The notes below the pieces were generated by a model. The model did not search any database and was not told where the DNA came from. It saw nothing but the letters and a program-made list of their open reading frames with translations. A stretch of 64,000 bases of DNA from Candidatus Hodarchaeota archaeon (lineage in GTDB: Archaea > Asgardarchaeota > Heimdallarchaeia > Hodarchaeales > Hodarchaeaceae), in NCBI GenBank assembly GCA_048887065.1, contig JBHLKC010000001.1, positions 1,264-65,263 of the forward strand. Direction: 5' to 3'. Of this stretch, positions 11,136-52,439 are shown one piece after another. The first letter of the stretch is position 1. Each line of letters starts with the position of its first letter. Both the position numbers and the translations under genes were made by a program.

Positions 11136-12398
11136 TTGGAAACCTTAAAAATGGGAATTACAGAAATTTTCGGTACTAAAGGAACCCAACTGAAGGGTAA
11201 ACGAATTCTAGTTGGTGTTACAGGCTCTATAGCTGCTATTGAAGTTCCTCATTTAATTCGAGAGATTTTGAGATATTCAGGTGACCCTATTGTTGTACTT
11301 TCGGAAGAGGCGGTTAGATTAGTTGCTATTGATGCACTAACATGGTGTATGGACAAAGAACCTATAACCAAAATTTCTGGAATCTCGGAACATGTCAAGT
11401 GGGTCTCTCATCCCGATTATAAAGTTGATTTATGTATTATTTGTCCAGCAACAGCAAATACTATCGCAAAACTTGCCAATGGTATTGCAGATGGGCCTGT
11501 AACATTAGCTGCTTTAGCAATAATTGGAGCTAAAATTCCCCTCTTAATTATACCTGCAGCTCATACTGTTTTATTAGAAAATCCAATTTCCAGAAAGAAT
11601 ATTTCATATCTTGAACAACTTGATGTAAAATTCATATCAGCTCCTGAGACTGAAAGTAAATACAAATTTCCTCCTCTAAACCAATTAATGGAAAAAATTA
11701 TTAATTTGGTCAATCCCTCTCTTCCGCTTCAAGGGGAAAAAATATTGATAACAGGGGGCGCTACAAGAGAATACTTGGATGATATTCGATTTATTTCTAA
11801 TCCTTCAACTGGCCTCTCAGCCCTACAGGTTACGAAAGCTCTCTATAGCCTAGGAGCTGAAGTTTCGCTAATTCTAGGTGAAGGACACAACATCGATTTA
11901 AAAGGATGTGCTTTTTCAGCTAAAATAGTCAGATCAACCTCGGATATGTATGATGCTGTTATGGAAGAGCTTTCTAATACTCATTATAATATTCTAGTCT
12001 CTGTTGCAGCAGTTTCAGATTATCATCCCCCGTATCAAACTGGAAAAATCGCTTCACGACAAACTAACTTAAAAATTGATTTAATCCCTACAGTTAAGAT
12101 ACTAGAAAAAGTTCGTGACAAATTTCCTGAATTATTCATTGTAGGCTACAAGGCTGAAGTAGGAATTTCTAAGGAAGAATTACAAAAAAGAGGCGAAAAG
12201 TTTCTAGAAAATAACAATCTCCAAATCGTTTGTGCAAATTGGGTAGGTGAACCAACAAAAGGATTTGTGTCTAAAACTAATGAAGTATTAGTTATTCGCC
12301 CAAATAGACCTGTTCTGCATCTTAAAGGATCTAAAACAGAACTTGGATATCAAATTGCTGAAGTAATTGCAGAAGAGGTCAAGAAGGAAAGTGATTGA
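11136..12398 (+). CDS. coaBC: bifunctional phosphopantothenoylcysteine decarboxylase / phosphopantothenate-cysteine ligase
   Basis: 420 aa. N-terminal flavoprotein domain (GKRILVGVTGSIAA, PATANTIAKLANGIAD) plus C-terminal DFP/CoaB domain (ITGGATREYLDDIRFISNPSTG). Confidence 0.85.
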   Translation: METLKMGITEIFGTKGTQLKGKRILVGVTGSIAAIEVPHLIREILRYSGDPIVVLSEEAVRLVAIDALTWCMDKEPITKISGISEHVKWVSHPDYKVDLCIICPATANTIAKLANGIADGPVTLAALAIIGAKIPLLIIPAAHTVLLENPISRKNISYLEQLDVKFISAPETESKYKFPPLNQLMEKIINLVNPSLPLQGEKILITGGATREYLDDIRFISNPSTGLSALQVTKALYSLGAEVSLILGEGHNIDLKGCAFSAKIVRSTSDMYDAVMEELSNTHYNILVSVAAVSDYHPPYQTGKIASRQTNLKIDLIPTVKILEKVRDKFPELFIVGYKAEVGISKEELQKRGEKFLENNNLQIVCANWVGEPTKGFVSKTNEVLVIRPNRPVLHLKGSKTELGYQIAEVIAEEVKKESD

Positions 12399-13318
12399 AA
12401 ATGAATCTTGCAATATTTGGTGCTGGTAGTATTGGATCGCTGTTCGCTGGTAGAATAGCACATTCTGGATTCAATATTTCAGTTATTGGCAGGAATCCTC
12501 ATGTGACAGAAATTCGTCGGAAAGGATTACGAATTATTGGAAATCAACACGAGATTATTTCTCATTTTCCTGCGGATACAGATTTTCAACCTGAAATCAT
12601 TAAGCCCAAGGCAGTTTTTGTAACCACTAAGGCATATGATAACAGTATTGTCGCACAAACAATGGCTGGAAAACTAGCTGAAAAGACGCCCATACTAATA
12701 TTACAAAATGGAATGGGGAACGAAGAAGATTTTCAGAGAATTTTTCCAAAAAATCCGATATATCGGGCTATAACCACTGAGGCGGCAGAATTAATACACC
12801 CTGGGGTTGTTAAACATGTTTCTTTTGGTAAAACCTCTTTTGATGTTATTAACGGTCAAGAAAATGGATATGGTTTAAAATTTCGTAATATAATGAGGAA
12901 ATCAGGATTCAATGCAAAGGAAACACAAAATATTCAACTAACTATGTGGCAGAAGTTATTGACTAATGCAGCAATTTGTCCATTAGCTGCACTTCTACAT
13001 GTAACCAATGGCCAAATTCTTCAGAAAGATTCTATTCAACAAATTTTCGATGCAATATTGGAGGAAGGGATAGCTGTTGCGACTCAAAACTTACCTGACG
13101 AAGATTTTTCAATGACTCGTGATTATGTTCTCAATGTGATTGAAAAAACAAAAGACAATCGTTGTAGTATGTTACAAGATATCGAACGAGGACGTAGAAC
13201 AGAGATAGACTATCTCAACGGTTTTATCGTTAGAGAAAGTCACCGTTTAGGGTTAAAAGCACCAGTAAATGCAGCGATTGCTGATTTAATACGTCATATT
13301 GAAACTTATCCGCAATAA
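12395..13318 (+). CDS. panE: 2-dehydropantoate 2-reductase (ketopantoate reductase, ApbA/PanE family)
   Basis: Rossmann motif NLAIFGAGSIGS, conserved K (TTKAYD) and NGMGN motif. 4-nt overlap with coaBC. Confidence 0.75.
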   Translation: MKMNLAIFGAGSIGSLFAGRIAHSGFNISVIGRNPHVTEIRRKGLRIIGNQHEIISHFPADTDFQPEIIKPKAVFVTTKAYDNSIVAQTMAGKLAEKTPILILQNGMGNEEDFQRIFPKNPIYRAITTEAAELIHPGVVKHVSFGKTSFDVINGQENGYGLKFRNIMRKSGFNAKETQNIQLTMWQKLLTNAAICPLAALLHVTNGQILQKDSIQQIFDAILEEGIAVATQNLPDEDFSMTRDYVLNVIEKTKDNRCSMLQDIERGRRTEIDYLNGFIVRESHRLGLKAPVNAAIADLIRHIETYPQ

Positions 13319-14222
13319 TGAAGGAATTTTAGTGCCAAGGGACGTTTCATATTGGGTTGCTGCTCACCTCACAGGTATTTTCGAGATCAGAGATAGTTCA
13401 GATAATCTCTTAGAAAAAGGGTCTCGTGGAGCAGGTCTTTCTATCAACAGGGGTGTAAGAACAACCGTTCATCGAACTGAGGTTCAGGAAACTGAGATTC
13501 TCTTTAACGGGATTAAAAAATCCCTTCCAGAAACATTAGTTACAAAGTGTGTTATTGACCTCATGCTGCCAAATAACCAAAGTTCTAGCCTTCTTGTCCA
13601 TCATAATTTTGAAGTCCCTGTTTCATCAGGATATGGTGCTTCTGCTGCGGGTGCACTAGGGACTGCTTTTTGCATAAATGATTTATTTAACATGGGTAGA
13701 ACTGAATTAGAATTATTCCAAGTAGCTCACAAAGCCGAGGTGAAAACTAAATCTGGACTAGGAGATGTCATCGCTCTTTATCAGGGAGGTATAGAAATTC
13801 GTTCAAGAGAAGGAGCTCCTGGCGTTGGGAAAACAATGTTGATTAATAACAATGAAGGATGGAAAGTTGCAACAGTTAATTTTGGTCCTCTTTCTACTTC
13901 TGAAGTTCTATCTAATCCTCACAAAAGGCGATTAGTTAATATTGCTGGAAGTGAATTAGTTAAAAAGCTTCTCTCTCGACCAACATTCAGTCATTTCATA
14001 CAGCTTGCCCAAATCTTTACCCAAAAAGTGAAACTCTGGTCACCTCGATTACAAAAATGCATTGAGAATTTACCAAACGATATATTTTGGGCTCAAATCA
14101 TGTTAGGTGAGGGTTTATTTCTATTTTACCAAGATGAGAGTAATTTAGAGCAAATTAGACTTCCGCTATCTCAAATCAATAAAGAGACTGTATGTCATCA
14201 AACTGTGGTGAAAAAACAATAA
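13299..14222 (+). CDS. pantoate kinase (archaeal GHMP-family kinase)
   Basis: GHMP ATP-binding motif PVSSGYGASAAGALG. Sits inside a CoA operon next to the PPS gene, which favours pantoate kinase over other GHMP kinases. Confidence 0.65.
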   Translation: MKLIRNNEGILVPRDVSYWVAAHLTGIFEIRDSSDNLLEKGSRGAGLSINRGVRTTVHRTEVQETEILFNGIKKSLPETLVTKCVIDLMLPNNQSSSLLVHHNFEVPVSSGYGASAAGALGTAFCINDLFNMGRTELELFQVAHKAEVKTKSGLGDVIALYQGGIEIRSREGAPGVGKTMLINNNEGWKVATVNFGPLSTSEVLSNPHKRRLVNIAGSELVKKLLSRPTFSHFIQLAQIFTQKVKLWSPRLQKCIENLPNDIFWAQIMLGEGLFLFYQDESNLEQIRLPLSQINKETVCHQTVVKKQ

Positions 14223-15013
14223 TGGAAGATCATGATATTCCGAAGAACCATCCCCGTTACGAATCATTAGTTACCCGTGAAAAGATAATTCAGGGAATGC
14301 ACAATAAGATTGTAGCTGAAGCAGGATTGATTGCTCATGGTCGTGGAGAAGCCTTTGATTACCTATTAGGAGAAGAATCACCTAAATTTGCTTTAAAACA
14401 GGAGAAACTAGCAGTAATTACATTACTTTTAGCAAAGAAACCAATTATTTCAGTTAATGGAAACGTTGCAGCTCTTTGTGCTAAGGAAATCGTGGAACTA
14501 GGTAAAATTTTAAACGCCCCTTTAGAAATTAACCTCTTCTATAGAACGCAGGAACGAATAAATGCTATTGAAGAAGTTATGAGAAAATCCGGAGCCGAGG
14601 TTTTACTTGGAATTACTTCTAATCATCAAGAAACCATTCCTGAATTGTCTCATCAGCGACGAATTGTCGATTCTCGTGGAATAGCGCGTTCAGATTGCGT
14701 ATTTGTACCGTTGGAGGATGGTGACCGTACGATGGCACTTAGAAAATTGGGGAAATCGGTGATTACGGTAGATTTGAATCCCCTCTCACGAACCTCTTTA
14801 ACAGCCTCAGTCTCCATTATTAACAATATTACAAGAGCAACAGCCGAGATGGTTGGTTTTACTGAGAAATTTCAACGACTGAGCGTTCAAGAATTAGAAA
14901 GAGAGAAAAAACAATTAAATAACAAAAAATTATTACAAGAGGCCATGAAATTTATGTCTACCCGACTTGTTGAACTTGCTAATAATAGAAAAACATTTGA
15001 GGTGAACCTATGA
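14192..15013 (+). CDS. phosphopantothenate synthetase (4-phosphopantoate--beta-alanine ligase, archaeal PPS)
   Basis: 273-aa protein of the archaeal-specific family that partners with pantoate kinase. Assigned mainly from operon context and family-level resemblance. Confidence 0.55.
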   Translation: MSSNCGEKTIMEDHDIPKNHPRYESLVTREKIIQGMHNKIVAEAGLIAHGRGEAFDYLLGEESPKFALKQEKLAVITLLLAKKPIISVNGNVAALCAKEIVELGKILNAPLEINLFYRTQERINAIEEVMRKSGAEVLLGITSNHQETIPELSHQRRIVDSRGIARSDCVFVPLEDGDRTMALRKLGKSVITVDLNPLSRTSLTASVSIINNITRATAEMVGFTEKFQRLSVQELEREKKQLNNKKLLQEAMKFMSTRLVELANNRKTFEVNL

Positions 15014-15807
15014 GAAAAAAAACCATTCTAGACATTATGGATATGAAGAAAAAGGGAGAAAAAATTACAATGCTTACCGCTTACGATTATGTTATGGCAT
15101 CTATCCTAGATGAAGCTGGGACAGATCTATTGCTTGTTGGAGATACTATGGGTATGGTGGTTCATGGTAATCCGACTACATTGCCTGTTACTTTGGAAGA
15201 TTCGATTCGTCATACTCAAGCTGTTGCACGAGGAGCAAAACAAGCGATGGTCATTGGAGATTTACCTTTCGGGACTTTTCAAGTTTCTGCTGAAGAGGCA
15301 GTTCGAAATGCTATCAAACTAGTTAAAATAGGTAATGCGGAAGCAATAAAGCTAGAAGGTGGGAGTGAAAGATGTGAAGCAGTCAAAAGAATACTTGATG
15401 CAGGTATGCCCGTCATGGGTCATCTAGGTTTAACTCCACAATCGATTCACAAGTTCGGTGGTTTCAAAGTTCAAGGTAAAACTGAAGAGTCGGCTGAGTT
15501 TCTTTTGGAAGAAGCAATGCACCTTGAAGAAGCAGGGATTTTTTCTCTTGTATTAGAAGCTATTCCATGGAAAGTAGCAAAGAAAATAACTGAAACTCTT
15601 TCTATTCCCACTATTGGCATCGGGGCTGGGCCTTATTGTGATGGACAGGTGCTGGTGACCTATGACCTCTTAGGATATTTCGATTTCGGGGCAAAATTTG
15701 TTAAAAGATATTTAAATTTGAAAGAACAAATACTAGAGGCAATCAAAGAATATAACAAAGAAGTTAGAGACGGAACGTTTCCAGATCTTAGTTATAGTTA
15801 CGAATAA
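15010..15807 (+). CDS. panB: 3-methyl-2-oxobutanoate hydroxymethyltransferase (ketopantoate hydroxymethyltransferase)
   Basis: ITMLTAYDY N-terminal signature, GDxxG Mg-binding region, TIM-barrel PanB pattern. 4-nt overlap with the upstream gene. Confidence 0.9.
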   Translation: MRKKTILDIMDMKKKGEKITMLTAYDYVMASILDEAGTDLLLVGDTMGMVVHGNPTTLPVTLEDSIRHTQAVARGAKQAMVIGDLPFGTFQVSAEEAVRNAIKLVKIGNAEAIKLEGGSERCEAVKRILDAGMPVMGHLGLTPQSIHKFGGFKVQGKTEESAEFLLEEAMHLEEAGIFSLVLEAIPWKVAKKITETLSIPTIGIGAGPYCDGQVLVTYDLLGYFDFGAKFVKRYLNLKEQILEAIKEYNKEVRDGTFPDLSYSYE

Positions 15808-20035: not shown

Positions 20036-21115
20036 TCAAGAGGATCTGCTGACTTTTGCAGGATTACGAATAAAGGCTGAAACTAACCTAATTGTCTGGT
20101 AAATATCTTCTATTGAGAGAAGAGAAGTCGGTGAATGAATGTATCGACAGGGAACCGATACTACTGATGAAGGGATACCTTCTCGCGCTAGGTGGATTCT
20201 ACCTGCATTCGTACCTCCAAATATCGGTTTTTTAATGTGGAATGGAATATTTTCATATTTAGCATTTATAATCAAGCGATCATTCACAGCGGGGTGAGCA
20301 AGCAAGCTCCGATCTGCAACTGTAATTGCAGGCCCTTTTCCAATGTATGCAGGGCATTCCGAGTCTTTAACACCAGGTACGTCTCCAGCAGTTGTATTAT
20401 CTATAGCTATTGCCATAGATGGATCTAAACTAAATGCTGCTGTTGCAGCTCCACGGCATCCAACTTCCTCCTGAACTGAGAAGCTAAAAAGGAGAGTATC
20501 TGAAGGAGGTTTCTCTGCAAATTCTTTGATTATTTGAATTAGTACATTTATTCCAGTTCGATCATCAAATGCTTTACCTCGGATCAAATTGTCAGGTAAT
20601 TCTACAAATGGATCGTATAATGTTCCAAAGGAACCAATATTGATTTTACATTCTTCTACTTTGTCACGGGATGATAAACCTATGTCAATGTACATATCAC
20701 TAATTTTCACAGCAGTTTTCCTTTCGCTTTCGCTTGTTAATTGGCGTGGTTTCGAGCCAATGATCCCGTGATATTCTTCTCCATTCTTATTAAGGATTTT
20801 CACACACTGTCCTAAAAGAATCCGAGAGTCCCATCCCCCAATTGGGACGAAACGGAGAAATCCTTTAGGATCGATATGGCTAATCATAAAGCCGATTTCA
20901 TCCATATGGGCATCTAACATTATATTCTCTTTGCCTTCGCTTCCCTTTATGACGGCTAATAGAGACCCTAGAGGATTTACCCACATCTTTTCAACTAATC
21001 CATCAATTTGACTTTGAATAAATCTAACTACAAGTTCTTCGTTTCCACTTACACCAATTAGTTCAGATAATTCTCTTTGGATGGATTTAATGCTATTGAG
21101 GTCTTTTTTTTCCAT
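20036..21115 (-). CDS. M42 family (TET/FrvX-type) aminopeptidase
   Basis: 359 aa. Has M42 metal-ligand pattern (HMDEIGF, AFDDRTG, EEVGCRGA) and C-terminal PCRYIHSP. Confidence 0.85.
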   Translation of the reverse strand: MEKKDLNSIKSIQRELSELIGVSGNEELVVRFIQSQIDGLVEKMWVNPLGSLLAVIKGSEGKENIMLDAHMDEIGFMISHIDPKGFLRFVPIGGWDSRILLGQCVKILNKNGEEYHGIIGSKPRQLTSESERKTAVKISDMYIDIGLSSRDKVEECKINIGSFGTLYDPFVELPDNLIRGKAFDDRTGINVLIQIIKEFAEKPPSDTLLFSFSVQEEVGCRGAATAAFSLDPSMAIAIDNTTAGDVPGVKDSECPAYIGKGPAITVADRSLLAHPAVNDRLIINAKYENIPFHIKKPIFGGTNAGRIHLAREGIPSSVVSVPCRYIHSPTSLLSIEDIYQTIRLVSAFIRNPAKVSRSS

Positions 21116-23177: not shown

Positions 23178-23981
23178 TTATTGCGGGATTACTTCTCTGA
23201 TTTGTTTAACAGTTTCGGAAATTCTCACAACGAGAGATTCAAGTCGTGCTGTTGGGTTACCATCCACACAAAGTAATAATCCTTCACTAATTTTATAGGC
23301 CACTAAATTAGTAGCTTCGGATGAGACCACCAAATATCTTAAATTACGCATATAAGTGCTGACATTTAAGATTCGAATAGCCCCAGCCATTTGCAGATGA
23401 TCCATATTGTACTCAATAAGGATGTCTCCTGTAAAAGAAATTATCATAGCTCCCCTTACAACTCCTTCTTCACTTTTTACGAGTTTTCTTAAGTAAAATT
23501 TAGCAGCATTTTTTGAAGAAGTAAGCATTTCTCTTGTCTCACCACTGAAGATTTCATCTACCTCTTCAGTGAAATTGGAAAACATATCTGTGTCTACAAT
23601 ATCAATCTTCTTGATATCATCGCTATATTTGGATAAAAATAAACTCGCAATTGTTGTTAGTTTGAATTGCATATCCATAGTACTGACAAGGGGAGATGCT
23701 AAGATTGCAAATACCAGTTCATCTCTTTCAATGAATGAAAAGCGGTTATCGGTCATATCCACCACTCGAAGGTCGCTTAAAGATGATTTCGCAAACGAAA
23801 ACATTGCAGTTAAGAAAGCAACCACAAGATGGGCATCAGGTGTTTTTCCTTCATTGGTCTCATAAGATCGCGTGAATAAGGTCTCACCTGATTCTTTTCG
23901 GAAAATAAAAAAAGCCTTTATTTGTTTAAATAATTCTAATGTCAACATTCTTCCCTCATAAGAATTCCTTCGCCTTAACAT
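23178..23981 (-). CDS. tandem roadblock/LC7/longin-like domain protein (MglB/Lamtor-like GTPase partner)
   Basis: 267 aa in two ~120-aa halves, each with a beta-beta-alpha-beta-beta-alpha pattern. The second half (VRGAMIISFTGDILIEYN ... EGLLLCVDGNPTARLESLVVRISE) matches the classic roadblock signature. Overlaps the GTPase gene by 26 nt. Confidence 0.6.
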   Translation of the reverse strand: MLRRRNSYEGRMLTLELFKQIKAFFIFRKESGETLFTRSYETNEGKTPDAHLVVAFLTAMFSFAKSSLSDLRVVDMTDNRFSFIERDELVFAILASPLVSTMDMQFKLTTIASLFLSKYSDDIKKIDIVDTDMFSNFTEEVDEIFSGETREMLTSSKNAAKFYLRKLVKSEEGVVRGAMIISFTGDILIEYNMDHLQMAGAIRILNVSTYMRNLRYLVVSSEATNLVAYKISEGLLLCVDGNPTARLESLVVRISETVKQIREVIPQ

Positions 23982-24540
23982 TCAGGATGTTGATAGTTAA
24001 TGTCCGAAAGGCTTCGTTAACATTTTCTCCAGTCTTTGCAGAAGTTTCGATATAATCGATAGCATGCATATGTTGTTGGACTTCTTTGGCTCTTTTTTTC
24101 GTAACTTCCCTTTTCAAATCGGATTTATTACCAATGAGGAATGATAGAGACTTTGGAGATACTCGCAATACTTGACTTTGCCATCGTTCCTGGATTGCAT
24201 TAAGTGTCTCTTTGCGTGTTAAATCAAAAACATAGAAAGCTCCTGATGCTCCCTTTAAGTATAAATGGGAATACGAGACATGTCTCGCTTGACCAGCAAT
24301 ATCCCAAACCTGAAGTGAAACATTTCGGAGGATGTCGTTATTATCAATGAATTTAACCTTCTTCGTCAAAAAATCCACTCCCAAACTCATACTATATTCC
24401 TCCTTAAATTTATTTTCAATGAATCTTAATATTAAAGACGTTTTTCCAACCATGCCATCTCCAAGAAGAAGAACTTTTAATACATGCTTATATTCTGTTT
24501 GTGATTTAACCAAACCCATATCTCCACGGATTGAACTCAT
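23956..24540 (-). CDS. Ras-superfamily small GTPase (Rab-like)
   Basis: G1 GDGMVGKTS, switch I SLGVDF (Rab TIGVDF-like), G3 WDIAGQ, G4 GNKSD, G5 ETSAK. 194 aa. Confidence 0.85.
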   Translation of the reverse strand: MSSIRGDMGLVKSQTEYKHVLKVLLLGDGMVGKTSLILRFIENKFKEEYSMSLGVDFLTKKVKFIDNNDILRNVSLQVWDIAGQARHVSYSHLYLKGASGAFYVFDLTRKETLNAIQERWQSQVLRVSPKSLSFLIGNKSDLKREVTKKRAKEVQQHMHAIDYIETSAKTGENVNEAFRTLTINILNVKAKEFL

Positions 24541-24952: not shown

Positions 24953-25261
24953 GTGTTAGCAAATAAAAAGTATATTTTTTCACTTAGCATATTAAGATTA
25001 AAAAAAAGCTTGTTGGTGGATTTAAGTTTGATCGATTCAGAATCCTCCGGAACAGAAAAATGGATAGAGATTGTTTTGAAAGAATTGAAAAGCGCTAGCA
25101 CAGTTGAAATTATTGATCGGGTAAGCATATTTAACCAAGATTGCGCTGATCGGATTCCAATGGTTCTAACCCAGATGAGGATGGATGGTAAAATAACTTA
25201 TAAGGTAGTTTCTTCTAAAAATGGGGAAAAGAAACAGATAGTGTGGGAATTGATCGATTGA
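24953..25261 (+). CDS. hypothetical small protein (possible winged-helix)
   Basis: 102-aa ORF between divergent operons. The C-terminal half has a weak wHTH-like pattern. The N-terminal 25 aa may not be translated. Confidence 0.25.
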   Translation: MLANKKYIFSLSILRLKKSLLVDLSLIDSESSGTEKWIEIVLKELKSASTVEIIDRVSIFNQDCADRIPMVLTQMRMDGKITYKVVSSKNGEKKQIVWELID

Positions 25262-25274: not shown

Positions 25275-26957
25275 CTAAATAGGCATTTCTTCTCCTTCAT
25301 AGGGAATATATACGTTTGTACTTTTTGCTAGAGAATATTTTTTTGAGATTACTTCATTTCCTAAATGAATTAGGGCAAGTCGCTTAGTTAAAGGCGCTAA
25401 TTTCATTGCTTGATGAAAATTTAAATGAATATCAAGTTTAGTATCAAAAAAATTACACTCAATTATGGACAAATCTGTGTTTTTAACCAAGAGAATTAAA
25501 TTATCTGTCCATCCAGTATCTCCACTGTATGCAATCGTGATTTTATTTGTTTCTAATCTATAACCTTGTGATTCAGGATTATGTTGCATGTCAATCGCTT
25601 TAATGGTAATCCCATTTAATTCTAAAGGTTGTTGGGGGGAAATTACTTTATAATGACATGCAAAAGGTTTTTTCTCATTTGCAATATTTTCGTACAAAGC
25701 GTGATATAGAGATTTGACCTTATCCTCAATATTATGAGGACCTATTATACTTAAGGGTTTTTTTCTATTTTGCTGTATGCTCGCTTCAAGAAGTATAAAG
25801 GGTAAACCTGCAAAATGATCCCCATGAAAATGTGATATCAATATAAGATCTATATCATCTGTTTTTCTTCCTGCTTTTTTCAATGCAGGTAAAGTATGTG
25901 GTCCACAATCTAACAGAATTCCATACTGATCTAGCTCAATAAAAACTCCCGCACTCTTATAAGCACTTGATGCAAACGCATCACCTGTTCCTAAAAATAA
26001 AATATTCGCTTTTGGGGGAGTTTGGGGTAAAATTCTTGTGCCAACATTTTTCCCATTCAGTGCCTCTTCAAATTCTTCAATACCCACAACCCAGCAATTT
26101 ATAAAGCTATTCGCTAATTCTACTAAATTTCTAAGCTTTCCTCCCATAGATTCCGTTACATCGTATTCTTCGATAGATTTTTCATTACTAAATGCTAGCA
26201 GATTATTCTTAGAGTCGTAACAAATAAAATCATGATTATTTACTTCAATTTTTGAAATAAATTGAGCGTCATCATATTTAGGATCCTTGGTATAAATTCC
26301 TGTTTTTTTACCTTTAACATCTGTTAAGAAAATCGCATCAGATATTTGAGTATGAGTGAAACGCCTCATTAAGGCCGAAGGTACAATGTCTCCTGAGAAT
26401 ACCTTCCACCCAGTAGGAGTATGACCAACATCTCCGTAGAAAATGGGCACAGCATTTGTATTGTTAATTATCTGTTCAAGCACGGAAAGATCTTGAGTAA
26501 TGGCTTCCTTTGATGAAATTTGATCTGTAGGGGCTCCGCTCATTATTTGATGAGAAGAAATTGAAATAGCATTTATCCCATGCCTTATAGCAGATGCAAC
26601 TACAAATTCGTTTTGAATATTTACAGCAAGTTTAACAATCGAATAACCTTGTTGGATATTTGAATATTTTTCTAGAAGATGTAAAACCAAAGAGTGGCCA
26701 ATGGAACCTGCTCCATGGACCAGGATTATTTTTCTTTGGGGATTTTTGCTCAAAAAAGAAGATAATGTCGAGAAAACATCATTTAGTTTTTGAAAGTTCA
26801 TTAACTTCGAAATTTTTTCGTTTAAGTCTTTGAGAGATCCATTCCCCTCCATAAAACGATCAATCTCTTTTAAATAATCCTCAATCCCCTCCTTGTTTCT
26901 TTTGTACGTAATTAAACTTCCACCAAGCTTAACGATTAAGACTTGTTTTTTTCTCAT
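25275..26957 (-). CDS. fusion protein: isopentenyl-phosphate-kinase-like amino-acid-kinase domain + metallo-beta-lactamase-fold hydrolase domain
   Basis: N-terminal IPK/FomA-type motifs (LIVKLGGSLIT, LVHGAGSIGH, TDVKGKKTGIYTKDP, ESMGGKL). C-terminal MBL motif ISHFHGDHFAG with downstream His/Asp ligands. 560 aa. Confidence 0.7.
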   Translation of the reverse strand: MRKKQVLIVKLGGSLITYKRNKEGIEDYLKEIDRFMEGNGSLKDLNEKISKLMNFQKLNDVFSTLSSFLSKNPQRKIILVHGAGSIGHSLVLHLLEKYSNIQQGYSIVKLAVNIQNEFVVASAIRHGINAISISSHQIMSGAPTDQISSKEAITQDLSVLEQIINNTNAVPIFYGDVGHTPTGWKVFSGDIVPSALMRRFTHTQISDAIFLTDVKGKKTGIYTKDPKYDDAQFISKIEVNNHDFICYDSKNNLLAFSNEKSIEEYDVTESMGGKLRNLVELANSFINCWVVGIEEFEEALNGKNVGTRILPQTPPKANILFLGTGDAFASSAYKSAGVFIELDQYGILLDCGPHTLPALKKAGRKTDDIDLILISHFHGDHFAGLPFILLEASIQQNRKKPLSIIGPHNIEDKVKSLYHALYENIANEKKPFACHYKVISPQQPLELNGITIKAIDMQHNPESQGYRLETNKITIAYSGDTGWTDNLILLVKNTDLSIIECNFFDTKLDIHLNFHQAMKLAPLTKRLALIHLGNEVISKKYSLAKSTNVYIPYEGEEMPI

Positions 26958-27256: not shown

Positions 27257-28903
27257 ATGAAACTAACTCTAAGAGTTTTCATTATTTTGCCTACGAGCAT
27301 TGTATGGTTAATAACAGCTCTCTTTTTACTTGTTTATGGATTTGAACTTATTCTTTTTGTGTTTCCAAGTAATGTGTATGATTTAGTTTTGAATCCAGGA
27401 ATTTTCTTATTATTCATAACAGCATGTTTAGCTACATTAGCATTATATACCACTGGCCATGCTATTGACAAGAATACGAAATTATTGAAGCCCCTAACAA
27501 AAATATCGCTTTTCATGAGCGGGGTTTGCTTACTATTGATAGTAATTGGTACCGAATATCAAATATTTTTGTTTCTTGGACTCCCTGGTCTTGGAATTTC
27601 TTTGGGTATTCTAGCTACAACATCTGGTGTTGTCTTTGGTTACTATTCTGAAATTGATAATAGGGGTCGTCTTTATGCTTTAGCAATCATTCTTAGCGCT
27701 CTCTTTTCTATCTTTTCTATTATTCTGTTAAACTCTCTTAATATTGATTTTCGGATTCATTTATTCCTTATTGGGCTCATATCAATTTTATCGGCAATTG
27801 TTATTCATTATATTTCTCGTTCAATTGAACCATGGAGGAATGATCCCTACCCGACCTCTATTATTAGAATATTTGACAGAAGATCTGTTAAAGCCTATTT
27901 AGCTGCCCATTTTTTCATATATTTAATGATTGGTATCGCTTTTTCCACTATTTCTCGATTGGGACTAGCAGAGGATTTGACAATTTTCTTAGATTTATTT
28001 ATAATAGAGAAATTTAGCATAGATCAGAATACATTTTTCTGGCTTTTGGTATTCATTGGTGATCTGTTCTTCATTTGGCCAATGGCTCTACTTAGTGATA
28101 AAATAGGTAGAAAGACAATTATGGTATTAGGTTGTTATGGGATAGTTTTCGCTGCTATTATTGTTGGATTAGGTACTGACATTCTTTCATATTATTTATC
28201 TGCATTCATTTTGGGCGGAAGTTTTGCTACTATGCACCCTTCAATCGATAGCGCAGTATGGGCTGATTTGAGTCCCCTTGATTCTTTAGGACGTTATTAT
28301 GCTTTAGGATTTATTTCTCTTCTTCAAGGGATTGGAGTTGGTTTAGCTATAGGCCTTCTTTTTTCTTCATTTATCGGAAGTGATATGGCTACAATTAGCT
28401 ATGTTCTTATTGGACTTGCGATCCTGGGCATGTTTTTTCTCTTCTTTGTTGTAGATTCCTTTATGCCCATTGATATTTTTCTTTTGTTATTATCCAGAAG
28501 TGGAATGTTAATTTTTAGTCATGATTTCCAGCGAGGTGAAGAAATATCAGACAAAGACTTAACACTTGTGACTGGAGCTTTATCGGCAATCAATACAATT
28601 TTTACCGAGACTATTCATGAACAAGAAGCTGCTTTAGATTTAGTTAGACACGGTAACGTGTTCATTGTGCAATCCAAAGTTTCTACGGAGAAAGGAGAAC
28701 TATTAGCGACAGTTTTTGCCAATAAAAATGATCCTGAGATTTATCGAGGTGTACGCTTGTTCCTAACAAAATTCGCTCACACATTTGAAGACGAACTTCA
28801 GACTTGGGTTGGCCGAAGTGATGCTTTCTTAAAAGCGATTGATATAGCTGAGGATGTATTTGGTCCTCTGATTCCTTCAAAAACATTTTCAACCCCCTCT
28901 TAA
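27257..28903 (+). CDS. polytopic MFS-like membrane protein fused to a C-terminal cytoplasmic roadblock/longin-like domain
   Basis: 548 aa. About 12 TM helices with MFS motif-A-like LSDKIGRKTIMVLG. The C-terminal ~130 aa (MLIFSHDFQRG..LTLVTGALSAINTIF..LDLVRHGNVFIVQSKV..ELLATVFANKNDP..RLFLTKFAHTFEDEL) align with the N-terminal domain of the 23178-23981 protein. Confidence 0.6.
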   Translation: MKLTLRVFIILPTSIVWLITALFLLVYGFELILFVFPSNVYDLVLNPGIFLLFITACLATLALYTTGHAIDKNTKLLKPLTKISLFMSGVCLLLIVIGTEYQIFLFLGLPGLGISLGILATTSGVVFGYYSEIDNRGRLYALAIILSALFSIFSIILLNSLNIDFRIHLFLIGLISILSAIVIHYISRSIEPWRNDPYPTSIIRIFDRRSVKAYLAAHFFIYLMIGIAFSTISRLGLAEDLTIFLDLFIIEKFSIDQNTFFWLLVFIGDLFFIWPMALLSDKIGRKTIMVLGCYGIVFAAIIVGLGTDILSYYLSAFILGGSFATMHPSIDSAVWADLSPLDSLGRYYALGFISLLQGIGVGLAIGLLFSSFIGSDMATISYVLIGLAILGMFFLFFVVDSFMPIDIFLLLLSRSGMLIFSHDFQRGEEISDKDLTLVTGALSAINTIFTETIHEQEAALDLVRHGNVFIVQSKVSTEKGELLATVFANKNDPEIYRGVRLFLTKFAHTFEDELQTWVGRSDAFLKAIDIAEDVFGPLIPSKTFSTPS

Positions 28904-29056
28904 TCATTAAAAATCACTCTTGTTTTGAACCTAAGGTTTATACCTTAACTTGGGATTTCGATACTGCTTTTTCATTGAACCAATCTAAAAATGGAATGGA
29001 GAAGTTTTTTTAATCTAATCAAACTCTGATTAAGAAAACAAAAGGAATGTCTAAAA

Positions 29057-30724
29057 GTGAGACAAAAGGACTATTTAATCATCTTATTGCCAAATATTTT
29101 CTCTTGGTTGTTAGCTTCTCTTCTTCTTCTAATTTACTCATTTGATATAATAGAATTTGTTGAATCGTCACCCAAAAACCCTTTTGCAGGATGGGGAGTT
29201 CTCATCTTGGGTATTATTCTTATTATCGTGATCTTAGTATTGTACTTTACTGGTGTTCTTCTCGATCAAAAACCTGTTTATCTAAGAACTTTAACCTTTT
29301 TAGGAGTACTGGGGAGTTCTATCATGGTTATATTATTTGTTGTATTGATTAAAACTATCTTTGTGGTAATTACATTGGCAGGTTTAGCCTTATTCTTCGG
29401 TCTATTGTTAACAAGTAGTGGGACTTTATTTGCAGGATTAACAGATATGTGGAAGCGAGGGAGAACATACTCCTATATAATATTCATATTTATCTTTTTC
29501 TCCATGATTAGCATCCTTTTGGGAGGTGTGATTTCTCATCAAGCTCAGCAATCTGATCCACAAAGGGTGAATCCATTAAGCTATAGTTGGATGAGTATTC
29601 TACCTGGAATCGGGGTTTTTGGCGTTTTCATTGCTATAATATTCCTTTTTGTAACACGAAACATGGGAGTTCCATGGGTTCCAGATGCATGGCCTACAAA
29701 ATTCAAGAAAATTGTTGAACGTAGATCTGTTCGTGCATACTTAATTACTCACTTTTTTATTTACTTGATGCTTGGTATTGTAATTGCAGCATTTCCCAAA
29801 ATCGGAGAAACTTTTGAGATTTTGAAGGATTTCTCATTTACGATAAATATTCCGAATTTAGGGATGTTTGATCCCCCTCTTGATAAATTATGGTGGTTTA
29901 TTGTTTTAGTTGGTGATTTAATAGGTATAATTCCAGCTGGCTATTATGCTGATCGTAATGGTAGGAAAAATTCGATAATAACTGCAATCTATGGAATAGT
30001 TTTTGCAGCATTAATATTTGGTCTTGAGAAAAGCCCTGAGAGTTTTTTTATCGCTGCTTTTGTAATTGGTGTATCTTTCGCTTTACTCCACTCCACTCTT
30101 GACTCTTCCTTATGGGCTGACTTATCTCCTCGTGATGGTTTAGGCCGTTATTATGCTTTAGGCTTCATTTCGCTTGCATTAGGCCTAGGAGTAGGATCAG
30201 GGTTAGGTCATTGGGTACTTAATAATGTCGAAATCATTACTTACATTTTAATCATATTGGCGATCATTTCTGCTTTTCCTCTCTTTTGGGTATCTGATAG
30301 TTATAAGCCCCTAGATTTTTCATTGTTGTTAGTTATCGAAGAAGGTGGATTACCAATATTCGATTATTCATTCCATAAGAAATTGGATGTATCTGTTGAA
30401 TTAACTTTATTATCAGGAGCTTTGACTGCAGTTAGCTCATTTATGAGTGAAACACTAAAAGAAAAAGGAGAATTAAATCTCGTAAGACATGGAAGTCATT
30501 TTATCTTAACTGATAGAGTTGGTGGTATCGCAGCTGCGGTTTTTAGTAATAAACAGGATCCAGAACTTCGGAAATCTCTGCGTGAATTTTTAGAACTTTT
30601 TTGTATTAAATTTTCTAATGAGCTCAAAACTTGGAATGGAGCACGAACTGTATTTGATGATGCTGTTGAACTAGCAGAGGAAGTATTCGGACATCTTGCT
30701 CCATCTACCAACCTTGAGGATTAA
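29057..30724 (+). CDS. paralog of 27257-28903: MFS-like membrane protein with C-terminal roadblock/longin-like domain
   Basis: 555 aa with the same architecture. Motif A YADRNGRKNSIITA, shared WADLSPxDxLGRYYALGFISL segment, C-terminal LPIFDYSFHKK..LTLLSGALTAVSSF..LNLVRHGSHFILTDRV..IAAAVFSNKQDP..LREFLELFCIKFSNEL. Confidence 0.6.
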   Translation: MRQKDYLIILLPNIFSWLLASLLLLIYSFDIIEFVESSPKNPFAGWGVLILGIILIIVILVLYFTGVLLDQKPVYLRTLTFLGVLGSSIMVILFVVLIKTIFVVITLAGLALFFGLLLTSSGTLFAGLTDMWKRGRTYSYIIFIFIFFSMISILLGGVISHQAQQSDPQRVNPLSYSWMSILPGIGVFGVFIAIIFLFVTRNMGVPWVPDAWPTKFKKIVERRSVRAYLITHFFIYLMLGIVIAAFPKIGETFEILKDFSFTINIPNLGMFDPPLDKLWWFIVLVGDLIGIIPAGYYADRNGRKNSIITAIYGIVFAALIFGLEKSPESFFIAAFVIGVSFALLHSTLDSSLWADLSPRDGLGRYYALGFISLALGLGVGSGLGHWVLNNVEIITYILIILAIISAFPLFWVSDSYKPLDFSLLLVIEEGGLPIFDYSFHKKLDVSVELTLLSGALTAVSSFMSETLKEKGELNLVRHGSHFILTDRVGGIAAAVFSNKQDPELRKSLREFLELFCIKFSNELKTWNGARTVFDDAVELAEEVFGHLAPSTNLED

Positions 30725-46063: not shown

Positions 46064-46099
46064 AATTGATCATCTACATAAGTAAAATTTGTCTAAAAA

Positions 46100-47011: not shown

Positions 47012-47483
47012 TTTAATTTCACTTCTACTATGTCCAACACAATATTCAGACTTAATACAGTAATTAATAGATTGTATTCTCCCTTGGGGATACCGTCTGA
47101 ATCGGAAAAATAATTTTGACCAATAGAGAACAATTACTCACAGTTTTTACGTGTTAGTTGCAGATATTCTAGCTGTTCCTTGGATTGTAATGTGGAGAAT
47201 AATAATTATTTTTCCGATTTTAAATTCTATAAAATAATATTTTAATTTTTCCATTTAAAAATTTGCAAACTGTATTTATTTTGTACTTAACTAGTGTAAG
47301 AAGTAAAAGAAAAACAGAAAAGAGGTTAAAATTTAATTATAGATTTTTTACAAAGACAGTAGGCATTGATTATATCGAAAATTTTGCAGCTCTTCCTCTA
47401 TAATAAGTGAAAAGAATTTGAAGCCTTTATCAGTGGTAATTTTGGGAAGGATATCTTACATTGAAGTCCTTTTTTAGGGGTTA

Positions 47484-50512: not shown

Positions 50513-50552
50513 AAACTACCAGAGGACGAAAAAGGCATCACCTTAAAATATA

Positions 50553-52416: not shown

Positions 52417-52439
52417 TATTGATCCACAATTAAATAATA

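What the first reader, a model, noticed from the sequence alone, without database searches (positions are those of the whole stretch)
25275..26957. Unusual fusion of an isopentenyl-phosphate-kinase-like domain with a metallo-beta-lactamase-fold domain
Seen in sequence: the N-terminal ~300 aa carry amino-acid-kinase/IPK hallmarks (KLGGS, VHGAGSIGH, TDVxG..Y, MGGK). The C-terminal ~250 aa carry the MBL HxHxDH motif (SHFHGDHFAG) plus later metal ligands. Stand-alone IPK is the archaeal mevalonate-pathway enzyme of about 250 aa, and I know of no described fusion to an MBL hydrolase. The second domain could hydrolyse a phosphoester or thioester linked to the kinase reaction. The gene sits inside the GTPase/roadblock locus.
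Basis: partly seen in the sequence, partly recalled or inferred. Interest (0 to 1): 0.6.

Follow-up and report, generated by a model that had tools for sequence, protein, structure and literature searches.

The report
Isopentenyl-phosphate kinase fused to a phosphodiesterase
An archaeon from the group closest to eukaryotes (Hodarchaeales) makes one protein joining a divergent isopentenyl-phosphate kinase to an intact metal-dependent phosphodiesterase; the kinase half probably supplies the lipid-precursor step these genomes otherwise appear to lack, and the job of the second half is unknown.

Summary
Window 25275-26957 (-) is one 560-aa ORF. It has an N-terminal amino-acid-kinase/IPK domain (residues 1-312), a 5-residue linker and a C-terminal short tRNase Z-like MBL domain (residues 318-560).

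It is not an artefact. About 58 cluster representatives from independent assemblies have both domains, both halves are equally conserved, and the AlphaFold model is confident.

The kinase half matches only IPKs among solved structures and keeps every IPK catalytic motif. It is divergent: below NCBI's IPK cutoff, with three insertions. Standalone 'long-form' kinases from Hodarchaeota-labelled MAGs share those insertions. The fused halves form one clade, so the fusion arose once.

A published survey scored all four Hodarchaeum genomes IPK = 0, although they encode the archaeal mevalonate route that ends in isopentenyl phosphate. One of them is a closed genome that carries this fusion. My BLASTP test shows the survey's filter would miss the fusion but catch any canonical IPK. 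The fusion is therefore most likely the 'missing' IPK.

The MBL half keeps all metal ligands and resembles atypical class-II phosphodiesterases (YhfI, Apyc1). Its substrate is unknown. I found no publication describing the fusion. I rate it a new variant of known kinds, of moderate interest.

The parts
25275..26957 (-). Complete 560-aa fusion gene (stop codon 25275-25277)
   Evidence: ORF list; translation check; about 58 two-domain homolog clusters, nearly all full-length
26022..26957 (-). Kinase half, residues 1-312: divergent 'long-form' isopentenyl phosphate kinase domain (amino-acid-kinase fold)
   Evidence: Pfam AA_kinase E=2.5e-18; NCBIfam IPPK_Arch 86 bits, cutoff 120; only IPKs hit in PDB; Foldseek TM about 0.82 to IPK 8u0k/3ll9
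26916..26930 (-). KLGGS glycine-rich phosphate-binding loop (K10, G12, G13 invariant); second lysine K19 in ITYK at 26901-26912
   Evidence: Invariant in 28 fusion homologs and in canonical IPKs
26694..26717 (-). HGAGSIGH motif. H88 aligns with the invariant histidine of canonical IPKs (HGAGSFGH), which I recall to be the phosphate-contacting catalytic His of IPK/FomA
   Evidence: Invariant H81, G82, A83, G84, G87, H88; aligned to canonical IPKs
26802..26900 (-). Insertion 1 (about res 20-52): extra helical segment absent from canonical IPKs, shared with standalone long-form kinases
   Evidence: MSA; helices 22-36 and 42-52 in the model
26388..26396 (-). SGD motif (S188-G189-D190), preceded by V186, which aligns with pocket residue I146 of M. 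alvus IPK
   Evidence: Invariant; alignment to 7lnt/3k4o
26136..26162 (-). DVTxxMxGK motif (D266, V267, T268, M271, K274), the nucleotide-site motif shared with IPKs
   Evidence: Invariant; aligned to canonical DVTGGMGGK
26172..26243 (-). Insertion 3 (about res 239-262): hairpin plus low-confidence loop, absent from canonical IPKs
   Evidence: MSA; strands 236-240 and 243-247 and pLDDT<50 at 264-267
26007..26021 (-). Five-residue linker TPPKA between the last kinase strand (GTRI) and the first MBL strand
   Evidence: the standalone long form P0261 ends at the equivalent ...VGTRIVPQ
25278..26006 (-). MBL half, residues 318-560: short tRNase Z-like / atypical class-II phosphodiesterase domain without exosite
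   Evidence: Pfam Lactamase_B_2 E=2.8e-22; RNase_Z model matched only over positions 1-150 of 302, 121 bits vs cutoff 293; Foldseek best hits 1zkp, 6kns YhfI, 7u2r Apyc1, TM about 0.8
25815..25835 (-). SHFHGDH = [T/S]HxHxDH metal-binding motif II (H376, H378, D380, H381)
   Evidence: 100% conserved in fusions, standalone MBLs and RNase Z; signature defined in PMC9293780
25365..25583 (-). Remaining metal/catalytic residues: H459 (25581-25583), D480 (25518-25520), E500-C501 (25455-25460), H511 (25425-25427), H531 (25365-25367)
   Evidence: All invariant; coordinates checked
25028..25261 (+). Context only: conserved convergent small gene (about 77 aa, winged-helix-like pattern), ending 13 nt from the fusion's stop codon
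   Evidence: Present in all 7 loci; 22 invariant columns; probable TTG start at 25028
23178..24540 (-). Context only: Ras/Arf-like small GTPase (23956-24540) overlapping a 267-aa protein with a weak longin-domain hit (23178-23981)
   Evidence: Pfam Ras E=1.5e-42; Fuz_longin_1 E=0.002, below cutoff; pair conserved downstream of the fusion in all loci
27257..30724 (+). Context only: two paralogous ~550-aa MFS-like membrane proteins, divergent from the fusion (299-nt intergenic region)
   Evidence: Pfam MFS_1; conserved in related loci

Best explanation
This is a genuine, lineage-specific bifunctional enzyme of Hodarchaeales (Asgard archaea).

Kinase half. It is a divergent 'long-form' isopentenyl phosphate kinase. 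It most likely catalyses isopentenyl phosphate + ATP -> isopentenyl diphosphate + ADP. In these organisms it replaces the canonical ~260-aa IPK as the last step of the archaeal mevalonate pathway.

MBL half. It is rigidly attached through a 5-residue linker. It is a catalytically intact binuclear-metal phosphodiesterase of the short, exosite-less tRNase Z-like / atypical class-II PDE type. I infer that it hydrolyses a small phosphoester rather than tRNA. By homology a cyclic or other nucleotide-type phosphodiester is the leading guess; its physiological substrate and any coupling to the kinase are unknown.

Shown: the architecture, conservation of both halves, IPK-type catalytic residues, an intact MBL metal site, a single origin of the fusion, and restriction to one lineage.

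Inferred: IP as the kinase substrate, replacement of the canonical IPK, and phosphodiesterase chemistry for the second half.
For: Architecture is real and under selection. There are about 58 two-domain cluster representatives. Only one 50%-identity cluster among 1.84 billion representatives has both domains. Mean pairwise identity is 53.5% for the kinase half and 53.7% for the MBL half. The model has pLDDT 89.5 and pTM 0.87.

Kinase = IPK type. PDB hits are IPKs only. IPPK_Arch is the only kinase model hit in NCBIfam. Foldseek gives TM about 0.82 to IPKs. All motifs that are invariant or near-invariant in canonical IPKs (K-GGS, T..K, HG.GS.GH, P..GD, SGD, DVT..M..K) are invariant in the fusion. 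Pocket positions mutated in M. alvus IPK structures (I74, I146) align with L110 and V186, so the pocket is still C5-sized and hydrophobic.

Lineage history. Standalone 320-356-aa kinases from Hodarchaeota-labelled MAGs share all three insertions, and one (P0261) scores above the IPK equivalog cutoff at 126 bits. In the NJ tree the fused halves are monophyletic 100/100, the long forms 98-100/100, and the two together 61-66/100.

Pathway gap. In PMC11052028 Tables S1/S3, all 4 Hodarchaeaceae/Hodarchaeum genomes have MVK, AcnX1, AcnX2 and AMPD but IPK=0. One is the closed 4.94-Mb GCA_020353515, which encodes fusion homolog P0014. The sister family S146-22 and all UBA460 Heimdallarchaeia have IPK=1. 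That survey used BLASTP at E<1e-15 and >70% coverage. In my emulation the fusion passes for 0-1 of 39 canonical IPK queries, whereas canonical IPKs pass in 99% of pairs.

MBL half intact. D350, H376, H378, D380, H381, H459, D480, H511 and H531 are invariant. Closest structures are BA1088, YhfI and Apyc1. YhfI, Rv1339, CpdA and Apyc1 are cyclic-nucleotide phosphodiesterases with the same [T/S]HxHxDH signature.
Against: The kinase half scores 86 bits, below NCBI's 120-bit IPK equivalog cutoff, and is only 26-30% identical to canonical IPKs, so a changed substrate cannot be excluded.

No mevalonate or isoprenoid gene lies near the fusion in the window or in six related loci, whereas canonical IPKs often sit in MVK-IPK-IDI2 operons.

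The absence of a canonical IPK rests on one published BLASTP survey. I could not scan a whole Hodarchaeal genome myself. Fusion presence together with IPK=0 is directly confirmed for only one of the four genomes.

Three of the four Hodarchaeum genomes also have PMK and DMD. They could make IPP without any IPK, so the need is not absolute.

Nothing links the MBL half chemically to isoprenoids. Its nearest standalone relatives are bacterial with no conserved neighbours. The related archaeal NZ protein was inactive on all generic substrates tested.
Confidence: 0.6

Rival explanations
1. Two-step salvage enzyme with a substrate other than isopentenyl phosphate. The MBL half opens a (cyclic) phosphodiester to a phosphomonoester, and the IPK-like half then phosphorylates that phosphate to a diphosphate. 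This is analogous to PhnP followed by PhnN in the C-P lyase pathway (my own knowledge). It could also be cNMP -> NMP -> NDP. On this reading the kinase half has left the IPK function.
For: The two chemistries are compatible in this order: IPK-type kinases phosphorylate a phosphate group and MBL phosphodiesterases produce phosphomonoesters. The kinase half is sub-threshold for the IPK equivalog, has three insertions and has no isoprenoid gene context. The MBL half resembles cNMP phosphodiesterases and the PhnP family. The short rigid linker and high pTM suggest a fixed two-domain unit.
Against: All IPK-specific residues are kept, and the aligned alkyl-pocket positions stay hydrophobic and small, which is not what a nucleotide or sugar-phosphate site would need. 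The standalone sister kinases work without an MBL partner, have none adjacent, and one passes the IPK cutoff. This reading leaves the Hodarchaeum IPK gap unexplained.
Confidence: 0.17
2. Opposed kinase/phosphohydrolase pair. The kinase half makes IPP from IP and the MBL half removes a phosphate from IPP/DMAPP (or hydrolyses a related diphosphate). Together they set the IP:IPP or DMAP:DMAPP ratio, as plant IPK does with Nudix hydrolases (my own knowledge). This might also supply DMAP for the prenyl-FMN cofactor needed by the AMPD decarboxylase.
For: A PhnP-family MBL annotated as a diphosphatase is among the structural neighbours (6b9v). Standalone long-form kinases have a HAD-family phosphatase next to them in three loci, plus SurE in two. 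That would be a repeated kinase-phosphohydrolase pairing. Hodarchaeum has both IPP-producing routes, which could call for balancing.
Against: The HAD and SurE genes are never co-oriented with the kinase, and both are common families, so the adjacency may be chance. No MBL enzyme acting on prenyl diphosphates is known to me. An unregulated fused futile cycle would waste ATP. The closest characterised relatives are diesterases, not diphosphatases.
Confidence: 0.1
3. The MBL half is an RNA/nucleic-acid processing nuclease (tRNase Z- or NZ-like). The fusion then reflects a recurrent, unexplained genomic coupling between MBL ribonucleases and isoprenoid genes in archaea rather than shared chemistry.
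For: The best NCBIfam hits of the MBL half are RNase Z models. RNase J sits inside MVK-IPK-IDI2-RNase J-polyprenyl synthetase operons in 10 of 40 informative canonical-IPK loci. In Haloferax the tRNase Z-like NZ gene HVO_2763 is adjacent to the IPK gene HVO_2762.
Against: The domain lacks the tRNase Z exosite: the RNase Z model is matched only over positions 1-150 of 302, at 121 bits against a 293-bit cutoff. Its signature residues (A327, F328, W483, C501) match the standalone PDE-like family, not RNase Z. It has no beta-CASP domain. The Haloferax NZ protein showed no tRNA-processing or exonuclease activity, and its authors found no conserved neighbourhood.
Confidence: 0.08
4. Artefact or decaying gene: a frameshift or assembly join of two genes, or a fusion in which one half is a dead remnant.
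For: One JGI contig carries the two halves as separate calls (P0096 and P0050).
Against: About 58 two-domain clusters come from four independent data sources. Seven loci are collinear. Both halves are equally conserved and all catalytic residues are invariant. The two-domain model is confident.
Confidence: 0.01

Closest known systems
Archaeal isopentenyl phosphate kinase (EC 2.7.4.26; NCBIfam NF040647; e.g. PDB 8U0K Thermococcus paralvinellae, 3K4O M. jannaschii, 3LL9, 7LNT M. alvus)
   Same: Amino-acid-kinase fold. Same motifs: K-GGS, T..K, HG.GS.GH with the conserved histidine, SGD and DVT..M..K. Only IPKs are hit in the PDB. TM about 0.82.
   Different: 313 aa versus about 260, owing to three insertions. 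26-30% identity. 86 bits against a 120-bit equivalog cutoff. Fused to a second enzyme. Not in an MVK-IPK-IDI2 operon.
Standalone 'long-form' IPK-like kinases of Hodarchaeota-labelled MAGs (P0261, P0276-P0279), annotated only as hypothetical proteins
   Same: Same three insertions and the same motifs. 34% identity over residues 4-313. P0261 ends where the linker starts. They form the sister clade in the NJ tree.
   Different: No MBL domain and none adjacent. Different gene neighbourhood (HAD, SurE, Prismane). P0261 scores above the IPK cutoff at 126 bits.
Atypical class-II phosphodiesterases of Pfam PF12706: B. subtilis YhfI (6KNS), B. anthracis BA1088 (1ZKP), M. tuberculosis Rv1339, C. glutamicum CpdA, phage Apyc1 (7U2R)
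   Same: About 245-aa MBL fold without exosite. [T/S]HxHxDH signature. ECNF-type motif shared with YhfI. Best structural matches, TM about 0.8.
   Different: Only 18-24% identity. Far below the Apyc1/cNMP-PDE model cutoffs (71 vs 400 bits; Pfam 31 vs 50). Fused to a kinase. Substrate untested.
Standalone ~245-aa MBLs, seen in bacterial genomes such as Bradyrhizobium, Myxococcota, Bacteroidota and Spirochaetes (L005-L084), and as unlabelled library representatives (P0128-P0275)
   Same: 33-45% identity over the whole MBL half. Same signature residues: A327, F328, W483, E500, C501.
   Different: Single-domain. No conserved neighbours across phyla. Uncharacterised.
tRNase Z (RNase Z/BN, ELAC1)
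   Same: Same MBL subfamily and metal motifs I-V. These are the best NCBIfam hits.
   Different: No exosite/flexible arm. 121 vs 293 bits. Diagnostic residues differ.
Haloferax volcanii NZ protein HVO_2763 (arCOG00500)
   Same: tRNase Z-like MBL lacking the exosite and of unknown function. Its gene lies next to the IPK gene HVO_2762.
   Different: Separate gene, reported as monocistronic, with no conserved neighbourhood in relatives. I could not test sequence membership because the sequence was not retrievable.

Membership tests
Isopentenyl phosphate kinase (NF040647 equivalog, EC 2.7.4.26) | Amino-acid-kinase fold closest to solved IPKs | tested here: met
   Pfam AA_kinase E=2.5e-18; PDB sequence hits are IPKs only; Foldseek TM about 0.82 to 8u0k/3ll9
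Isopentenyl phosphate kinase (NF040647 equivalog, EC 2.7.4.26) | Catalytic motifs: K-GGS loop lysine, second lysine, HG.GS.GH histidine, SGD aspartate, DVT..M..K lysine | tested here: met
   K10, G12, G13, K19, H81-G84, G87, H88, S188-D190, D266-T268, M271 and K274 are invariant in 28 fusions and aligned to canonical IPK invariants
Isopentenyl phosphate kinase (NF040647 equivalog, EC 2.7.4.26) | Score at or above the curated equivalog cutoff (120 bits) | tested here: not met
   86.3 bits; canonical IPKs score 134-347 and the standalone long form P0261 scores 126
Isopentenyl phosphate kinase (NF040647 equivalog, EC 2.7.4.26) | Small hydrophobic pocket for the C5 chain | tested here: inconclusive
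   M. alvus I74 and I146 align with L110 and V186. This is alignment-level only; no model coordinates were available.
Isopentenyl phosphate kinase (NF040647 equivalog, EC 2.7.4.26) | Genome needs the step (IP-producing pathway present) and has no other IPK | tested here: inconclusive
   Published table: Hodarchaeum 4/4 have AcnX and AMPD with IPK=0. The filter emulation supports that a canonical IPK would have been seen. I made no whole-genome scan, and the window's own genome is not in the table.
Isopentenyl phosphate kinase (NF040647 equivalog, EC 2.7.4.26) | ATP-dependent phosphorylation of isopentenyl phosphate | not testable with these tools
   Requires an enzyme assay or complementation
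Other amino-acid-kinase families (UMP kinase, NAGK, glutamate-5-kinase, aspartokinase, FomA/FosC, MfnE) | Significant match to the family model | tested here: not met
   None appears among the 25 NCBIfam hits shown of 28 at E<=1, or in the PDB at E<=10. Canonical IPKs do give weak hits to these families.
tRNase Z (TIGR02651 / PRK00055) | MBL motifs I-V | tested here: met
   D350, HxHxDH 376-381, H459, D480 and H531 are invariant
tRNase Z (TIGR02651 / PRK00055) | Flexible-arm exosite for tRNA binding; full-length model match above cutoff | tested here: not met
   Best stretch covers only model positions 1-150 of 302, at 121.7 vs 292.95 bits. The domain is 243 aa, and residues A327, F328, W483 and C501 differ from the RNase Z consensus.
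Atypical class-II phosphodiesterase (PF12706; YhfI/Rv1339/CpdA/Apyc1) | [T/S]HxHxDH signature; about 245-aa exosite-less MBL fold | tested here: met
   SHFHGDH; Lactamase_B_2 E=2.8e-22; top Foldseek hits 1zkp, 6kns, 7u2r; signature per PMC9293780
Atypical class-II phosphodiesterase (PF12706; YhfI/Rv1339/CpdA/Apyc1) | Match above curated cutoff of the cNMP-degrading PDE / Apyc1 models | tested here: not met
   NF041851 71 vs 400 bits; PF23023 31 vs 50 bits
Atypical class-II phosphodiesterase (PF12706; YhfI/Rv1339/CpdA/Apyc1) | Hydrolysis of 3',5'-cyclic nucleotides; homodimer with residues contributed across protomers | not testable with these tools
   Requires biochemistry. Only a monomer was modelled.
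Archaeal NZ protein family (arCOG00500, HVO_2763) | Sequence membership in arCOG00500 | not tested
Only the descriptive features (tRNase Z-like, no exosite) match.

The most novel reading that the evidence does not exclude
MBL-fold hydrolases may have an unrecognised role in archaeal isoprenoid metabolism, and the Hodarchaeal fusion would be its 'Rosetta stone'. On this reading the MBL half and the kinase half act on the same metabolite pool: for example, phosphodiester -> isopentenyl/prenyl phosphate -> diphosphate salvage, or control of the IP:IPP or DMAP:DMAPP ratio. The same logic would explain two other observations: exosite-less tRNase Z-like MBLs such as the orphan NZ protein next to IPK in Haloferax, and RNase J embedded in MVK-IPK-IDI2-GGPPS operons. 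It would also mean that the closest archaeal relatives of eukaryotes rewired the last step of the mevalonate pathway.
Probability: 0.15. Interest if true: 0.8.

Novelty: new variant of a known kind. Interest (0 to 1): 0.55.

Why it matters
Hodarchaeales are currently regarded as the closest archaeal relatives of eukaryotes. Their isoprenoid pathway is used to argue how the eukaryote-type mevalonate route arose.

A published survey scores Hodarchaeum genomes as lacking IPK although they encode the archaeal route that ends in isopentenyl phosphate. If the fused kinase is that IPK, the apparent gap is a detection artefact, and pathway reconstructions for this key lineage need correcting.

The fusion also ties a member of a large, poorly understood group of short tRNase Z-like metallo-hydrolases to a defined metabolic enzyme. 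That gives a concrete starting point for finding their substrates.

Both predictions can be tested directly with one recombinant protein.

Tried and rejected
1. Genome-contig scan with the fusion alignment. That was the only scan of the collection allowed.

2. Neighbour clustering of those 80 bacterial loci. No neighbour was conserved across phyla, so there was no substrate clue.

3. Contexts of the nearest standalone MBLs P0071 and P0073. These were ordinary bacterial neighbourhoods.

4. Test of whether the closest standalone MBL, P0128, follows a kinase gene as a split version. The upstream fragment is unrelated.

5. The listing of cluster members on canonical IPKs to get taxonomy. It returned no organism names.

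6. AFDB Foldseek search for the architecture. The library was not available.

7. Narrow HMM of the MBL half against 80 canonical-IPK loci. Zero hits. A broader HMM plus a motif scan found only RNase J, so there is no general IPK/short-MBL gene pairing.

8. Literature searches for the fusion and for an RNase J/mevalonate link. Nothing describes the fusion. The RNase J synteny was not found in the searchable library.

9. First bootstrapped NJ script timed out. It was redone with vectorised distances.

10. I could not measure the distance between the two active sites because model coordinates are not exposed. I could not retrieve HVO_2763 to test arCOG00500 membership.

11. Rejected: a thioesterase (glyoxalase II-type) reading, because no glyoxalase II model or structure is hit. 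Also rejected: a functional link to the neighbouring GTPase/longin genes, because a convergent gene intervenes and the whole >30-kb block is syntenic.
Full report
**Observation.** Window 25275-26957 (minus strand) is one uninterrupted 560-aa ORF. Pfam places an amino-acid-kinase domain at residues 6-291 (E=2.5e-18) and a Lactamase_B_2 domain at 347-524 (E=2.8e-22). An AlphaFold2 model built from 28 homologs is confident over both domains (mean pLDDT 89.5, pTM 0.87). The last kinase strand (res 307-311) and the first MBL strand (res 318-323) are separated by only a few residues (linker TPPKA, 313-317).

**Not an artefact; restricted distribution.** A search of 5.8 billion clustered proteins returned about 58 cluster representatives with both domains. 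Nearly all cover 98-100% of the query at 47-91% identity, and they come from NCBI, JGI, ENA and Logan assemblies. Where named, they are labelled Hodarchaeales, Hodarchaeota, Heimdallarchaeota or Promethearchaeota. Two are labelled Thorarchaeota. The one I inspected has the typical Hodarchaeal gene order, so that label is probably wrong. An exhaustive HMMER pass over 1.84 billion 50%-identity representatives found the two-domain architecture in one cluster only. Mean pairwise identity among 28 members is the same for the kinase half (53.5%) and the MBL half (53.7%), so neither half is decaying. On one JGI contig the halves are called separately (P0096 and P0050). That looks like a broken copy of the fused gene, not evidence that the fusion is an artefact.

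**Kinase half.** Against all PDB sequences, the N-terminal 313 residues hit only IPK entries (8u0k, 3k4o, 3ll9, 7lnt and relatives, and 3lkk, a T. acidophilum IPK deposited under another name). No UMP kinase, NAGK or aspartokinase appears even at E<=10. IPPK_Arch is the only kinase model hit in NCBIfam, but at 86 bits it is below the 120-bit cutoff. Foldseek gives TM about 0.82 to IPK structures. The residues invariant or near-invariant in canonical IPKs (K-GGS, T..K, HG.GS.GH, P..GD, SGD, DVT..M..K) are invariant in the fusion family. The two pocket positions that were mutated in deposited M. alvus IPK structures (I74, I146) align with L110 and V186. At alignment level, the alkyl pocket therefore remains small and hydrophobic.

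**A long-form lineage and a single fusion event.** Compared with about 260-aa canonical IPKs, the kinase half has three insertions: residues about 20-52 (helical), KGKKTG at 214-219, and about 239-262 (hairpin plus loop). The exhaustive search revealed P0261, a standalone 339-aa protein that aligns over residues 4-313 (34% identity), shares all three insertions, and ends at ...VGTRIVPQ, where the linker begins in the fusion. P0261 scores 126 bits, above the IPK cutoff. Its relatives P0276-P0279 (320-356 aa) are annotated as hypothetical proteins of Hodarchaeota or Promethearchaeota MAGs. In bootstrapped neighbour-joining trees the fused kinase halves are monophyletic (100/100), the long standalone forms are monophyletic (98-100/100), and the two group together against canonical IPKs with moderate support (61-66/100). 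The shared insertions add independent support. The simplest history is that a long-form IPK arose in this lineage and was fused once to an MBL domain.

**The pathway gap.** PMC11052028 surveyed mevalonate-pathway genes across archaea. Its tables classify GCA_020353515, GCA_016839515, GCA_016839815 and GCA_019057635 as Hodarchaeales/Hodarchaeaceae/Hodarchaeum. All four are scored MVK=1, AcnX1=1, AcnX2=1, AMPD=1 but IPK=0, and three also have PMK and DMD. Family S146-22 of the same order (2/2) and all order-UBA460 genomes have IPK=1. AcnX and AMPD make isopentenyl phosphate, so the route needs an IPK. GCA_020353515 is a closed 4.94-Mb genome and encodes fusion homolog P0014. The survey retrieved IPKs by BLASTP with the Haloferax enzyme at E<1e-15 and >70% coverage. 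I emulated this with 39 canonical IPKs as queries and a database size of 3e8. Fusion proteins passed for 0-1 of 39 queries, long standalone forms for 12-26 of 39, and canonical IPKs for 99% of query pairs. A canonical IPK would therefore have been found, and the fusion would not. I conclude that the fusion is most likely the 'missing' IPK of Hodarchaeaceae. The limits are: I could not scan a whole genome myself; only one of the four genomes is directly shown to hold the fusion; and genomes with PMK and DMD do not strictly need an IPK.

**MBL half.** The best sequence and structure matches are exosite-less tRNase Z-like proteins: B. anthracis BA1088 (1zkp), B. subtilis YhfI (6kns), Apyc1 (7u2r), short tRNase Z/ELAC1 and PhnP-family proteins. 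The RNase Z model is matched only over positions 1-150 of 302, at 121 vs 293 bits, so this is not a tRNase Z. All metal and catalytic residues (D350, H376, H378, D380, H381, H459, D480, H511, H531) are invariant. Signature residues A327, F328, W483, E500 and C501 are shared with a large family of standalone ~245-aa MBLs at 33-45% identity. Those from named genomes are bacterial: Bradyrhizobium, Myxococcota, Bacteroidota and Spirochaetes. These residues are not shared with RNase Z. Characterised relatives (YhfI, Rv1339, CpdA, Apyc1) are homodimeric 'atypical class-II' cyclic-nucleotide phosphodiesterases with the signature [T/S]HxHxDH, which SHFHGDH fits. The scores against the curated cNMP-PDE and Apyc1 models are far below cutoff. 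I therefore infer phosphodiesterase chemistry but no particular substrate.

**Context.** The window is collinear with six other fusion loci: Hexapep - two MFS-like genes (divergent) - [M42 peptidase in four loci] - fusion - small convergent gene - Ras-like GTPase - ~256-aa protein - ... - HEAT protein - ERCC4 - CoA-biosynthesis genes. The conserved ~77-aa convergent gene ends 13 nt from the fusion's stop codon. It separates the fusion from the GTPase pair, so the 'GTPase/roadblock locus' is a neighbour rather than an operon partner. The window has no second amino-acid-kinase gene and no mevalonate genes.

**Other MBL-IPK associations.**
- In Haloferax volcanii the orphan tRNase Z-like NZ protein HVO_2763 (arCOG00500) has no exosite and was inactive on pre-tRNA, RNA and chromogenic substrates. 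Its gene is adjacent to the IPK gene HVO_2762, but its authors saw no conserved neighbourhood in relatives.
- I pulled 80 canonical-IPK loci from metagenomes. None has a short MBL of the fusion type.
- However, 10 of the 40 loci with enough downstream sequence carry MVK - IPK - IDI2 - RNase J (beta-CASP MBL) - polyprenyl synthetase on one strand.
- Standalone long-form kinases have no MBL neighbour. They sit beside HAD phosphatases, and in two of three loci beside SurE, though never co-oriented.

These are suggestive coincidences, not evidence of shared chemistry.

**Mechanism and rivals.**
- Best-supported (confidence about 0.6): the kinase half phosphorylates isopentenyl phosphate as the lineage's IPK. 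The MBL half is an active metallo-phosphodiesterase on a small phosphoester of unknown identity.
- Sequential PDE-then-kinase salvage on a non-isoprenoid substrate, analogous to PhnP/PhnN (my own knowledge): about 0.17.
- Opposed kinase/diphosphatase pair that sets the IP:IPP ratio, analogous to plant IPK with Nudix hydrolases (my own knowledge): about 0.10.
- RNA-nuclease reading: about 0.08.
- Artefact: about 0.01.

**Novelty.** Both domains belong to known families, and the proteins already sit in databases. NCBI labels them 'MBL fold metallo-hydrolase' or 'amino acid kinase family protein', and JGI labels them 'ribonuclease BN/isopentenyl phosphate kinase'. I found no paper that describes the fusion or links it to the Hodarchaeal IPK gap. 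I classify it as a new variant of known kinds: a lineage-specific architecture with a probable pathway role and an unexplained second activity.

Noticed in passing
L091, L096, L097, L098, L101, L127, L129, L132, L140, L147 (e.g. L091:6847-12201): In 10 of the 40 canonical-IPK metagenome loci with enough downstream sequence, an RNase J (Lactamase_B + RNase_J beta-CASP + RMMBL, about 450 aa) sits inside a same-strand isoprenoid operon: MVK - IPK - IDI2 - RNase J - polyprenyl synthetase. It is unexplained why a ribonuclease is embedded there.
   Followed up: partly
window 25028-25261 (+) (ORF listed from 24953): A conserved ~77-aa gene is convergent with the fusion and ends 13 nt from its stop codon. 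It is present in all seven fusion loci with 22 invariant columns and has a winged-helix-like pattern. There is no Pfam hit. The true start is probably the TTG at 25028.
   Followed up: partly
window 23178-24540 (-): A Ras/Arf/Roc-like small GTPase (194 aa) overlaps by 26 nt a 267-aa protein that has only a weak longin-domain hit (Fuz_longin_1, E=0.002) and no PDB match. The pair is conserved downstream of the fusion in all related loci. It may be a GTPase with a longin-type regulator module.
   Followed up: partly
window 27257-28903 and 29057-30724 (+): Two tandem paralogous ~550-aa membrane proteins have weak MFS_1 hits covering only the middle part, plus a soluble C-terminal region of about 130 aa with no Pfam hit.
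   Followed up: no
L085:434-3402, L089:8514-11071, L090:10001-11746: Standalone long-form IPK-like kinases are flanked by HAD-family phosphatases in all three loci, and by a SurE nucleotidase in L085 and L089. These loci come from two sublineages that are 43-71% identical. The flanking genes are never co-oriented with the kinase, so this could be chance or a kinase/phosphatase pairing.
   Followed up: partly
L002:8908-9957, L171:4934-5977, L172:294-1334, L174:6903-7952: In four of the seven fusion loci an M42 aminopeptidase gene lies directly upstream on the same strand, with a gap of about 20-50 nt, which suggests co-transcription. The window, L001 and L173 lack this copy, although another M42 gene lies further downstream (window 20036-21115).
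   Followed up: no
window 45350-54154: Cytochrome c machinery in an Asgard genome: cytochrome b561-like (45350-46063), a 495-aa multihaem cytochrome c (49025-50512), and CcmB, a CcmA-like ABC ATPase and CcmC-like maturation genes (51727-54154).
   Followed up: no
window 11136-15807 (+): A complete archaeal-type coenzyme A precursor operon: CoaBC (DFP/Flavoprotein), ketopantoate reductase, a GHMP-family kinase (probably pantoate kinase), phosphopantothenate synthetase and ketopantoate hydroxymethyltransferase. It is syntenic with L001, L002 and L174.
   Followed up: no
L174 (GCA_048882505.1, contig JBHLRO010000013.1): The protein is labelled 'Candidatus Thorarchaeota archaeon' in NCBI, yet the locus has the full Hodarchaeal gene order around the fusion. 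The MAG's taxonomic label is probably wrong.
   Followed up: partly
P0096 and P0050 (same 5,599-bp JGI contig): The kinase part (235 aa, 85% identity) and the MBL part (350 aa, 77% identity) are called as two proteins on one contig. This is probably a frameshift or sequencing error that splits the fused gene in that assembly.
   Followed up: no
L001:5421-6296: A UbiA-family prenyltransferase lies next to the MFS pair in the closed Hodarchaeum genome but is absent from the equivalent position in the window. It is the only isoprenoid-related gene seen near any fusion locus.
   Followed up: no
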